Program-made: the position numbers
Assembly: GCA_000002445.1 (NCBI GenBank)
Contig: CH464491.1
Span: 3,232,001 to 3,296,000 of the forward strand
DNA: 64,000 bases
Source of the DNA: Trypanosoma brucei
Lineage: Eukaryota
Direction: 5' to 3'
In this document: positions 48,801 through 51,800 of the stretch, in pieces
Layout of the letters: each line of letters starts with the position of its first letter
Numbering within the stretch: the stretch's first letter is position 1

Positions 48801-51800
48801 TGCAATGGACACCTGTTGGGCGGACCCTGCGGAGGATGAAACTCAACTCGACCGGTGGGGTTTCGGCGACAACCCCCGCGGCCGGGGTGTCATCCTTTTT
48901 GGTAGTAAAGCCGTTGACGACTTCTTAGGCAACCATAACTACGAATACATTTTTCGTGCTCACCAGGAGAAGTCGGATGGGCTGAAGCTCAGCAAGAACG
49001 CAAGAGTGTTCACAATCTTCAGTACCAGTGCTTACGTAGGACACGAGAATGGGGCGGGAGTAGTATTGGTGGCAGATGGGAAAATTAGGTTGATTATAAA
49101 AAATGCGGACAGTATCGAAATGGACCCGGAAACCAACGTTCGCACAGCTCACGGAAACGAGGAACTGGAAAACGGGCCGCGGTGACATAAAGCAGGTAAT
49201 GCTGCCGAAAGATGGTGGATGATTTTCATGCCGTCAGACAACATCATGTGGGGAGTGAGTGACAAGGTAAGCTTACATCTTTTCACCACCCTACAACCTC
49301 ATGACCTTTTCGCAGCTTTGAAATATGAGCAAGGGCGTGCGAACGAAATCGGCGTGCCTCCACAAAAATGTGCAAGCTCTGCTGGTGGGAGAACACATCA
49401 GTAGTTTGTGAACAGCATATCTACAAGTTGGTGGTAAGAAGCGCTGGTTTTACTATGTGGAGGATGGAGGGATGTTTCGTTAAAAGAAGAAGAAGGGGGA
49501 TGAAGGAAGCGCGTCTGCGTCTTCCTCGCTGCATTCTCGCTCACGTGTGAACAGACCACCGCAGGAGGACACTGCGCCCGGTAGTTGTTGTCCAGTGTAT
49601 GCAGTGAACTCGGGGGTTAAGATGGAGAGCGTGCGGTTCCCAACTAGAGAGCAGATATTTAACCTTTTTTGTCATCTTTTTGAGGATAACATAAATGCGC
49701 CGTGCAACCACTTTTGGTACTATTTCATATCTCTCCTTCAACTATTCCCACATCCATATTCCTCCTTCACGCAGTTACCTTCATTCTTCTGTGCCTGATT
49801 CTCTCTCTCTCTCCTTCTTTCACTGGTTTAAGTCGCTGGGCGTGTGTCATTCGTGCCGGAATTGGCCGTCCCATCTTTTGTGGAGGAGTACACCCGTTGT
49901 CCCACATCCCTCCGCATATACAAAACCTTAGATTGTTGAAGTGAGCTACGACGAACGGGAAAGCATATGGGCATCAAACCATGAAATATGGCTCATTGCC
50001 CTTTTTCTCCACCCTTCTTCACATTACACTTGCATTCCATGTATATATATATATATATATATATATATTCTGCTTTACCGTAATTGCTTTTCCTCACTTT
50101 TTTTCTTTGTCGTGGGCGCTAGCGTTTCGAGAGAAGCTGCATCTAATAAGTGGCTCCAACTGAAGCAGGTGGCACCTGTCGAAGGCAAAGAATTCATCAA
50201 GTGGCCCACGGTTTTTATTTTTTGAAGACACACTCGTAGGTGCGGCAGAAAAGGCGAGGCTGCGAACATTCACACATACAACCAAAGGAAGTAAGTGCGG
50301 TCAGTCGGGGCCGGTGCTACTCGCATAATATATTGTGTTTACCGTTTAACTATTCCTCTTTTATGAGCTCCAGGATGTCACAGAAACTTCGTGGCCACTC
50401 ACTTGCGCCCAAACGGCAGAAGCCCTTGGTGAATCCCGAATTACTTCTGGCCTCACCGACGGACTCGACACGAGGTGGGAGTAAACAGTTTGTTCGTGCT
50501 TTTAATGATGACGGATGTCTTTCCACTCGTGAAGTGGGCGTGCGGTGGTTTAACTTTGCGTTGCTATCCATCTTCTACACACTTCGTTCGCAACCGTGGT
50601 CATTACTAATCACGTACACAATTCTATTGTACGTTGGAATACTATTCGTGTTCTCTGCAGCGTATGTTGTGTGGGCCCGTGGGTGTGGTGCCCAAGACGG
50701 CTCAACGTGGGTGTCCGCTCTGTATTTCACCGTTGTTAGCTTTGCGGCTAACGGTGGTTATGTTGGTGAGCAGCAAGACACCATGCTCGATCCGCATCAC
50801 GTGTGCTTTACCGGACGTACGCTCATTGTAACACTGCTTTCTTTTGGGAACATCATATTCGTCGGACTTGTTGCCGCACTCGTCGTTGGAAAGGCGGCGT
50901 ATGGCGAGGAGTTAGGTCACCGCATAGTCTTCAGTGACTTTTGCTCGCTGGCAATGGCCCCGGGTACAAAAGATCGAGACTGCTGGGACCTCACTTTTCG
51001 CATGGCTAACAGCAGTTCAAGCAAGGCACTCGCACATGGTCAGCTGCGGCTCTTCATTGTAACATCAGAGCCAACAGACAACTCAAGGCATCAACGCAAG
51101 AGGCGTAAGAGTTCAGTGGATAGAACGGAGACACGACGGCACGCCACTAGTAGTCATCATCACATTGATGACAAGAGTAAGCGATCGGGCCAGTTATCGA
51201 AACATTTGGAACACCATATAAGCGACGGTACCGTTCAGACAGAAACCCATCCGCATAGACGCGAGGGAGAACTTGATGATGTAACGAGGATGGATCGCGA
51301 ATCGAGGGAGTGGGCGGACGCCGAGTCGCATATTGTAGAGGTGTTGGCAGAGGAACACCTGAAACGGAAACGAGGTCGTGAACACACCTCTAAACGCCAA
51401 GTACTGTCGTCGCCTGCCACGAGTTCATGTAGCAGTGATGCGGATGGCGGGGCCAGTTTTGGCGGGGCTACGGGGTCGGGGTGTTCATACGTTCCCATCA
51501 ACTCACCTGAGAGTGCCCTGAAGCAAGTGTCCATTCAAGTTGAGGAATTAAGATGGACATGTTCTGGGGAGAAGCACCTCGATGGGCGGGACGGTAGACT
51601 ACTGTTATGGTTCCCAGTGGACATCACGCACACGATTAACCGTTACAGCCCGCTCTACCGCTATGTAAAGCATAATATGACTAATAGTCTTTGCACGCTG
51701 AATTCTCTGCAGGTGGCATCTCCCGCGATCCCGCAGGAAGCGATATCCGAGGAAGAGGGGGGACCAGCCGCTACCGCAGCGTTTCCCTGCTCATTTCAGC

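What the first reader, a model, noticed from the sequence alone, without database searches (positions are those of the whole stretch)
50537..50885. Kir-fold potassium-channel-like gene whose selectivity-filter signature is degenerate
The protein has the hallmark Kir layout: a cytoplasmic N-terminus, an M1 helix, a pore helix plus filter, an M2 helix, then a long cytoplasmic C-terminus. The helices are highly recognisable (RWFNFALLSIFYTL…; LIVTLLSFGNIIFVGLVAALVVGKAA). Where the T-I/V-G-Y-G filter should be, the sequence reads 'SFAANGGYVGEQ'. This keeps G-Y but lacks the threonine and the terminal glycine. A Kir scaffold with a non-canonical filter might conduct ions with altered selectivity, or it might not be a K+ channel at all. 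I recall a report of a 'signature-sequence-free' inward-rectifier-like channel in T. brucei acidocalcisomes. This ORF may be that gene or a relative. The divergent pore region (nt ~50711-50775) is the part worth structural and functional attention.
Basis: partly seen in the sequence, partly recalled or inferred. Interest (0 to 1): 0.5.

Follow-up and report, generated by a model that had tools for sequence, protein, structure and literature searches.

The report
Known trypanosome potassium channel gene TbIRK

Summary
Window 50363..52024 (+) encodes a 553-aa protein identical at all 553 residues to XP_829311.1 of T. brucei brucei TREU927. Two details tie it to the published TbIRK gene. GGYVG lies at residues 131-135, matching the mutants G131A, G132A and G135A. 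Both published RNAi primers match exactly at CDS nt 869-888 and 1260-1279 (PMC5429665). Pfam IRK_C scores above its gathering cut-off, while the transmembrane model PF01007 gives no hit. An AlphaFold2 model shows slide helix, M1, re-entrant pore helix, loop and M2. The 50 best PDB fold matches listed are all Kir or KirBac channels. A profile-profile comparison with canonical T-I-G-Y-G Kirs gives 98.9% probability. The motif A-A-N-G-G-Y-x-G-E is invariant in 21 kinetoplastid orthologues. Its N-G-G-Y-x-G-E core recurs, with three variants, in 16 more distant unnamed relatives; one of these shares the Mon2 – phosphatase – IRK gene order. Function comes from the 2017 paper: inward rectification, pK/pNa about 7-10, Cs+ block, Ba2+ insensitivity, acidocalcisome location. 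Novelty: already known. Interest is low.

The parts
50363..52024 (+). Complete TbIRK coding sequence (Tb927.11.12490), 553 codons plus stop
   Evidence: ORF, taken from the first ATG. The translation is 553/553 identical to XP_829311.1 of T. b. brucei TREU927. The published primers match at CDS 869-888 and 1260-1279.
50555..50590 (+). Slide (interfacial) helix, residues 65-76 (FALLSIFYTLRS)
   Evidence: AlphaFold2 helix H65-76. It aligns with the pre-M1 region of KirBac3.1.
50597..50683 (+). Outer transmembrane helix M1, residues 79-107
   Evidence: AlphaFold2 helix H79-107 with pLDDT about 90. W79 is invariant.
50708..50743 (+). Re-entrant pore helix, residues 116-127 (WVSALYFTVVSF)
   Evidence: AlphaFold2 helix H116-127 with pLDDT about 85. 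It aligns with the pore helix of KirBac3.1 and of protist Kirs.
50744..50770 (+). Non-canonical selectivity-filter loop AANGGYVGE, residues 128-136; GGYVG is nt 50753-50767
   Evidence: Coordinates. A128, A129, N130, G131, G132, Y133, G135 and E136 are invariant in 21 orthologues. The NGGYxGE core recurs in distant relatives. G131A, G132A and G135A were studied in PMC5429665.
50801..50914 (+). Inner transmembrane helix M2 and linker, residues 147-184
   Evidence: AlphaFold2 helix H147-184. The block N163, I164, V167, G168, V170-L173, V175, K177, A178 is invariant.
50921..51073 (+). First half of the cytoplasmic Kir beta-rich domain, residues 187-237
   Evidence: AlphaFold2 strands 189-198, 208-215 and 224-237. 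It aligns with canonical Kirs in hhalign.
51074..51520 (+). Lineage-variable, basic, serine/histidine-rich insert predicted to be disordered, residues about 238-386
   Evidence: pLDDT is below 50 for residues 253-384. There is no column conservation and the length varies widely between orthologues. The insert is much shorter in the 408-aa relative P0024.
51521..51976 (+). Second half of the cytoplasmic Kir domain (IRK_C match), residues 387-538
   Evidence: Pfam PF17655, best stretch residues 477-538, E = 2.1e-8. The segment 'DGRLLLWFPVDITHTINRYSPLY' aligns with GIRK '[23 protein letters not shown]'.

Best explanation
The ORF at window 50363-52024 (+) is TbIRK (Tb927.11.12490) of Trypanosoma brucei brucei TREU927. 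It is a divergent member of the inward-rectifier (Kir) channel superfamily. Each subunit has a slide helix, M1, a re-entrant pore helix, a filter loop, M2 and a beta-rich cytoplasmic domain; the cytoplasmic domain is interrupted by a disordered insert of about 150 residues. These features are shown here. By analogy with Kir channels, four subunits should form a central pore whose narrowest part is lined by the loop A-N-G-G-Y-V-G-E instead of T-x-G-Y-G; this step is inferred. According to the published experiments, the channel passes K+ in preference to Na+ (about 7-10 fold), rectifies inwardly, is blocked by Cs+ but not by Ba2+, and sits in the acidocalcisome membrane. There it probably provides a cation conductance that accompanies proton pumping and polyphosphate and cation storage; that physiological role is inferred and has not been demonstrated.
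For: Identity: the protein is 553/553 identical to XP_829311.1 / EAN80199.1 of T. b. brucei TREU927. GGYVG is at residues 131-135, and both RNAi primers are at CDS 869-888 and 1260-1279, exactly as in PMC5429665. Kir membership: Pfam IRK_C scores 34.4 bits against a cut-off of 22.5. A family profile finds Kir3.1 and KirBac3.1 in the PDB at E = 1e-4 to 2e-3, in collinear segments. hhalign of the transmembrane half against canonical protist Kirs gives 98.9% probability and E = 1.2e-17. The AlphaFold2 model has helices in the order slide, M1, pore helix, M2, with pLDDT 75-94. The 50 best Foldseek PDB matches listed are all Kir or KirBac, at E = 1e-7 to 6e-6. Constraint on the filter: AANGGY-x-GE is invariant in 21 kinetoplastid orthologues. 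The NGGYxGE core recurs in 16 more distant relatives: 13 carry it exactly, two have NGGYLSE and one has NGAFTGE. One of these relatives has the same gene order, Mon2_C - Metallophos - IRK_C. Function, from the literature: electrophysiology, the G132A selectivity loss and the acidocalcisome localisation are in PMC5429665. The L. tarentolae orthologue was detected near the acidocalcisomal VTC complex by BioID (PMC13375126).
Against: The Pfam transmembrane model PF01007 gives no hit even at E <= 10. A single-sequence search of the PDB reaches only E of about 0.2. The sequence link to Kir therefore rests on the C-terminal domain, on profiles and on the predicted fold. The published selectivity is modest and was measured by two-electrode voltage clamp on whole oocytes with endogenous currents. 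Few mutant oocytes survived, Ba2+ did not block, and RNAi produced no growth phenotype. [quoted passage not shown] The full-length AlphaFold2 model has low overall confidence (mean pLDDT 54, pTM 0.38) because of the insert and termini. It is a monomer model, so the pore geometry was not examined.
Confidence: 0.9

Rival explanations
1. The protein is a Kir-fold channel, but in the parasite it is effectively a poorly selective cation channel, or one tuned to an ion other than K+ that is relevant to acidocalcisomes. On this view 'potassium channel' is a label that reflects the oocyte assay conditions.
For: The canonical T-x-G-Y-G is absent, and the threonine position is alanine. The published pK/pNa is only about 7-10, against hundreds to thousands for classical K+ channels, as a review points out (PMC9799330). 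The channel is insensitive to Ba2+, and NMDG currents were higher than expected. The paper itself cites bacterial Kir-like channels with altered filters (NirBacs) that are non-selective.
Against: K+ was preferred over Na+ by two independent measures. Cs+ blocked with an IC50 of 0.74 mM. G132A reduced the K+/Na+ discrimination. Strict conservation of NGGYxGE across deep lineages argues for a specific, selected pore chemistry and against a degenerate one.
Confidence: 0.2
2. The protein no longer conducts ions. It is a Kir-derived scaffold or regulatory subunit, and the oocyte currents are indirect.
For: The signature sequence is missing. RNAi gave no growth phenotype. No basic PIP2-binding cluster is evident at the M2-CTD linker, which reads GKAAYGEELGHR (the comparison with the Kir2.2 K-P-K-K-R motif is from memory).
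Against: Point mutations in the putative filter changed reversal potentials, rectification and Cs+ sensitivity, which is hard to explain without a pore formed by TbIRK. The pore helix, the filter loop and the M2 residues are the most conserved parts of the protein.
Confidence: 0.03
3. The ORF is a chance open frame or a pseudogene.
For: None was found.
Against: The frame is intact for 553 codons. Orthologues occur throughout the kinetoplastids at E down to 1e-131. Synteny is conserved. The Pfam hit is above its cut-off. The gene has been cloned, expressed and knocked down (PMC5429665).
Confidence: 0

Closest known systems
TbIRK, Tb927.11.12490 (Steinmann et al. 2017, Sci Rep 7:656, PMC5429665)
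   Same: It is the same gene. The protein is identical over 553 residues to the TREU927 reference protein. The GGYVG numbering (131-135) is the same, and the published RNAi primers fall at the same nucleotide positions.
   Different: Nothing differs. T. equiperdum differs at 2 residues and T. b. gambiense at 6, none of them in the pore helix or filter loop; the gambiense change L154V lies in M2.
Canonical Kir / KirBac channels (Pfam IRK PF01007 + IRK_C PF17655; e.g. KirBac3.1, Kir2.2, GIRK2)
   Same: The order of elements is the same: slide helix, M1, pore helix, filter loop, M2, then a beta-rich cytoplasmic domain. All 50 listed Foldseek PDB hits are from this family. IRK_C is matched above its cut-off. 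hhalign against T-I-G-Y-G protist Kirs gives 98.9%. Inward rectification and Cs+ block are published.
   Different: The filter is A-N-G-G-Y-V-G-E instead of T-I/V-G-Y/F-G. hhalign places G131 as a one-residue insertion, with alanine at the threonine position and a variable residue at the last glycine. There is no PF01007 hit. A disordered insert of about 150 residues splits the cytoplasmic domain. No basic linker cluster is evident. The channel is Ba2+-insensitive, only about 7-10 fold K+-selective, and located in an organelle.
Bacterial Kir-like channels with altered filters (NirBac), as cited in PMC5429665
   Same: They have a two-transmembrane P-loop Kir architecture with a drastically altered pore motif.
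   Different: They are reported as non-selective, whereas TbIRK keeps a moderate K+ preference. No sequence comparison with them was made here.

Membership tests
TbIRK (Tb927.11.12490) itself | Same protein sequence as the T. b. brucei TREU927 reference gene | tested here: met
   There are 0 differences over 553 aa against XP_829311.1 / EAN80199.1.
TbIRK (Tb927.11.12490) itself | Published landmarks: GGYVG with G131, G132 and G135; RNAi fragment at nt 869-1279 with the given primers | tested here: met
   GGYVG is at aa 131-135. The forward primer matches at CDS 869-888 and the reverse primer at CDS 1260-1279, both exactly.
Kir (inward rectifier) channel superfamily | Two transmembrane helices flanking a re-entrant pore helix, preceded by a slide helix | tested here: met
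   The AlphaFold2 model has H65-76, H79-107, H116-127 and H147-184 at pLDDT 75-94. The 50 best listed Foldseek PDB hits are all Kir or KirBac.
Kir (inward rectifier) channel superfamily | Beta-rich cytoplasmic C-terminal domain (Pfam IRK_C, PF17655) | tested here: met
   E = 2.1e-8, 34.4 bits against a gathering score of 22.5. All but one of the 21 homologues found carry a precomputed PF17655 hit.
Kir (inward rectifier) channel superfamily | Match to the transmembrane-domain model Pfam IRK (PF01007) | tested here: not met
   There is no hit at E <= 10 in the current Pfam. The 2017 paper's PF01007 hit (E = 5.8e-6) used an older Pfam release. I suspect, but did not test, that the older model also covered the C-terminal domain.
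Kir (inward rectifier) channel superfamily | Detectable homology of the transmembrane half to canonical Kirs by profile methods | tested here: met
   hhalign of A2 against A4 (protist Kirs with T-I/S-G-Y-G) gives 98.9% probability, E = 1.2e-17 and 176 aligned columns. The A2 profile against the PDB finds KirBac3.1 at E = 0.002.
Kir (inward rectifier) channel superfamily | K+ channel signature sequence T-x-G-Y/F-G in the filter | tested here: not met
   The loop reads A-A-N-G-G-Y-V-G-E and is invariant in the orthologues. The canonical relatives found in the same search have T-I/S-G-Y-G.
Kir (inward rectifier) channel superfamily | Inward rectification and K+ selectivity | not testable with these tools
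   Published for this gene: inward rectification, pK/pNa 7.3-10.2, Cs+ IC50 0.74 mM, no block by Ba2+ (PMC5429665).
Kir (inward rectifier) channel superfamily | Homotetrameric assembly around a central pore | not tested
   Only a monomer was modelled. No multimer tool was available.
Kir (inward rectifier) channel superfamily | Basic PIP2-binding cluster at the M2-cytoplasmic-domain linker of eukaryotic Kirs | tested here: inconclusive
   The linker is GKAAYGEELGHR, with only K177 and R187 basic; both are invariant among the 21 kinetoplastid orthologues. The comparison with the Kir2.2 linker motif is from memory, and no binding can be inferred.

The most novel reading that the evidence does not exclude
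The NGGYxGE loop would be an ancient, strictly conserved alternative filter design and not a degenerate K+ filter. The HMM search with no word index found it in 16 distant relatives, all unnamed and all from metagenome or run assemblies. This extends the family beyond the TriTryp group, to which the 2017 paper's BLAST search was limited. hhalign suggests the loop is one residue longer than T-x-G-Y-G. A tetramer structure might therefore reveal a new way for a P-loop channel to achieve moderate K+ preference, or a different physiological ion in acidocalcisomes.
Probability: 0.2. Interest if true: 0.45.

Novelty: already known. Interest (0 to 1): 0.1.

Why it matters
For a genome scan, this is a correct re-discovery of a published gene, so it adds nothing new. 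The channel itself remains of moderate interest to specialists. It is one of the few P-loop channels that prefer K+ without the T-x-G-Y-G signature. No experimental structure of it or of a close relative turned up in the PDB sequence search. Its role in acidocalcisome ion balance is unresolved. The small additions made here are threefold. The filter motif is invariant across the kinetoplastids, and its NGGYxGE core recurs in deeper uncultured relatives. The gene order Mon2 – PPP-type phosphatase – IRK is conserved in one such relative. The nearest canonical Kirs by profile search include a diatom Kir.

Tried and rejected
1. I do not count this as a refutation, because IRK_C, profile-profile comparison and fold evidence all agree.
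2. A single-sequence phmmer search of the PDB gave only weak Kir hits at E of about 0.2. Profiles were needed.
The filter register therefore stays ambiguous. The HMM alignment to KirBac3.1 stops at G131, placing A-N-G opposite T-I-G. hhalign inserts G131 and aligns G132-Y133 with the G-Y of G-Y-G.
4. Cluster look-ups for the distant NGGY relatives returned no organism names. Their taxonomy is therefore unknown. Only the synteny of P0024 suggests a kinetoplastid-like genome.
5. Rfam and tRNA scans of the whole window found nothing.
6. I considered and rejected the idea that the ORF starts at the GTG at 50240, as the ORF listing reports. The ATG at 50363 reproduces the published residue and nucleotide numbering and the 553-aa database proteins.

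Full report
**Observation**

The finding's coordinates, 50537-50885 (+), translate in frame to GVRWFNFALLSIFYTLRSQPWSLLITYTILLYVGILFVFSAAYVVWARGCGAQDGSTWVSALYFTVVSFAANGGYVGEQQDTMLDPHHVCFTGRTLIVTLLSFGNIIFVGLVAALV. The stretch lies inside a long ORF on the + strand. The ORF listing starts that ORF at a GTG at 50240. The first ATG is at 50363, and from there to the stop at 52024 the product is 553 aa.

**Identity**

A homology search found 21 proteins, all from kinetoplastids or from unnamed assemblies. The top cluster holds Trypanosoma brucei-group proteins. Listing that cluster and aligning its members gave these results:
- The window protein has 0 differences over 553 residues from XP_829311.1 / EAN80199.1 of T. 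brucei brucei TREU927.
- It has 2 differences from T. equiperdum.
- It has 6 differences from T. b. gambiense.

It names the gene Tb927.11.12490. It places the putative filter GGYVG at G131, G132 and G135. It also gives RNAi primers that amplify nt 869-1279 of the CDS. In the window ORF counted from the ATG at 50363, GGYVG is at residues 131-135 (nt 50753-50767). The gene-specific parts of both primers match exactly, at CDS 869-888 and 1260-1279. The ORF is therefore TbIRK itself.

**Is it a Kir-type protein?**

- **Pfam.** The scan gives IRK_C (PF17655) at E = 2.1e-8 and 34.4 bits, above the 22.5-bit gathering score. It gives no hit to the transmembrane model PF01007, even at E <= 10.
- **Single sequence against the PDB.** This yields only weak Kir hits, at E of about 0.2. 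They are collinear over the transmembrane and cytoplasmic parts.
- **Profiles against the PDB.** A profile of 21 orthologues reaches a Kir3.1-KirBac chimera at E = 1e-4. A profile of the transmembrane half reaches KirBac3.1 at E = 0.002, with the pore helices aligned.
- **Profile against 1.84 billion representatives.** The transmembrane-half profile returned the kinetoplastid family, then more distant relatives, then canonical Kirs that carry T-I/S-G-Y-G. One of the canonical Kirs is from the diatom Fistulifera solaris.
- **Profile against profile.** hhalign between the TbIRK-family transmembrane half and those canonical Kirs gives 98.9% probability and E = 1.2e-17 over 176 columns.
- **Predicted structure.** An AlphaFold2 model built on the orthologue alignment has pLDDT 75-94 for residues 70-180. 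Its helices are 65-76 (slide helix), 79-107 (M1), 116-127 (pore helix) and 147-184 (M2), followed by beta strands.
- **Fold search.** Foldseek against the PDB returns only Kir and KirBac chains among the 50 best hits listed, at E = 1e-7 to 6e-6.

**The filter**

In 21 kinetoplastid orthologues, V125, S126, A128, A129, N130, G131, G132, Y133, G135 and E136 are invariant. Only residue 134 varies, taking V, F, I, A, M or L.

The 16 more distant relatives carry the core as follows:
- 13 have NGGYxGE exactly.
- Two have NGGYLSE.
- One has NGAFTGE.

Across an alignment that includes 14 of these distant relatives, N130, G131 and E136 stay invariant.

The register relative to T-I-G-Y-G is ambiguous. 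The HMM alignment to KirBac3.1 stops at G131 and puts A-N-G opposite T-I-G without a gap. hhalign treats G131 as a one-residue insertion and aligns G132-Y133 with the G-Y of G-Y-G. That leaves A129 at the threonine position and the variable residue 134 at the last glycine. In either register the canonical threonine is replaced. I could not inspect model coordinates, so I make no statement about pore geometry.

**Other anatomy**

The cytoplasmic domain is split by an insert at residues about 238-386. The insert is basic and rich in serine and histidine. It is not conserved in sequence or length and is predicted to be disordered.

The 408-aa metagenomic relative P0024 lacks most of this insert. 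Its locus has the gene order Mon2_C protein, Metallophos phosphatase, IRK_C protein, all on one strand. The window has the same order at 40220-46807, 47212-49185 and 50363-52024. This argues that P0024 is a deep orthologue from a kinetoplastid-like genome.

The M2-cytoplasmic linker reads GKAAYGEELGHR. It lacks an obvious basic cluster such as the one that binds PIP2 in animal Kirs. That comparison is from memory and is not a test.

**Mechanism**

- **Shown here:** the gene's identity, its Kir fold, the conserved non-canonical loop, and the split cytoplasmic domain.
- **Taken from PMC5429665:**
  - In Xenopus oocytes the channel gives inwardly rectifying, time-independent currents.
  - pK/pNa is 7.3 by reversal potentials, 10.2 by another method, and IK/INa is 8.3.
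  - Cs+ blocks with an IC50 of 0.74 mM.
  - 10 mM Ba2+, TEA and Cd have no effect.
  - G132A raises Na+ conduction, weakens Cs+ block and reverses the rectification.
  - G131A and G135A behave similarly, but too few oocytes survived for quantification.
  - HA-tagged protein co-localises with the acidocalcisome marker TbVP1.
  - RNAi knock-down of 80% has no growth effect in procyclic forms.
- **Later literature:** later papers list it as an acidocalcisome channel (PMC11537032; PMC9799330). The L. tarentolae orthologue appears in BioID datasets around the VTC complex (PMC13375126).
- **Inferred:** tetrameric assembly, the loop lining the pore, and a role as a cation conductance coupled to acidocalcisome ion and polyphosphate storage.

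**Rivals**

The main rival is that the channel is only weakly selective, or is tuned to another cation in vivo. The modest selectivity, the Ba2+ insensitivity and the whole-oocyte method leave room for this reading; I give it about 0.2. A non-conducting scaffold is unlikely given the mutant phenotypes. A chance ORF is excluded.

**Comparison and novelty**

The closest known thing is the gene itself, so the novelty class is 'already known'. Relative to canonical Kir channels it meets the fold, the cytoplasmic domain and the profile homology criteria. It fails the signature sequence and the PF01007 sequence model. It is best described as a divergent Kir-superfamily member, which is how the literature describes it.

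The only modest additions here are:
- the strict conservation of the filter motif across the kinetoplastids, with its NGGYxGE core recurring in deeper relatives;
- the existence of more distant uncultured relatives, where the 2017 paper found none outside the TriTryp group by BLAST;
- the conserved synteny.

**Verdict**

The feature is already known, so interest is low at 0.1.

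Noticed in passing
window 16188-17585 and 23422-24876 (+): Two tandem paralogous protein-kinase genes (Pfam Pkinase, about 142 bits each). Their products are identical from about residue 105 to the C-terminus but have unrelated N-terminal regions. 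Overall identity is 84%, and there is an exact 300-nt DNA repeat at 16473-16772 and 23764-24063. From memory these would be the CLK1/KKT10 and CLK2/KKT19 pair (Tb927.11.12410 and Tb927.11.12420). Counting the ORFs of at least 200 aa from there to TbIRK (..12490) fits that numbering.
   Followed up: partly
window ~17600-23400: A spacer of about 5.8 kb between the two kinase paralogues. It is AT-rich (GC 0.31-0.38), has no ORF of 200 aa or more, and shows strong local GC and AT skews. It contains short (TTG)n and AAAAAAAGTAA arrays at 18782-18835 and 19085-19140. It is unusually long for an intergenic or UTR region in this window. I did not explain it further.
   Followed up: partly
window 1-64000: All 19 ORFs of 200 aa or more are on the + strand, which is consistent with one polycistronic transcription unit. 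No tRNA genes or Rfam families were detected.
   Followed up: yes
window 40220-46807, 47212-49185; locus L001 2393-9648: The two genes upstream of TbIRK are a Mon2-like protein and a calcineurin-like (Metallophos) phosphatase. They occur in the same order and orientation upstream of the distant TbIRK relative P0024 on a metagenomic contig, ENA sample ERZ19398731.
   Followed up: partly
window 50040-50110: A (TA)n run at about 50042-50069 is followed by a pyrimidine-rich tract, about 250-320 nt upstream of the TbIRK start codon. This is plausibly the trans-splicing acceptor region, but I did not test that.
   Followed up: no
window 104-2650 and 27899-30355 (+): Other recognisable neighbours are a DNA photolyase / cryptochrome-type protein (FAD_binding_7 + DNA_photolyase) and a CDC14-like dual-specificity phosphatase (DSPn + DSPc).
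   Followed up: no
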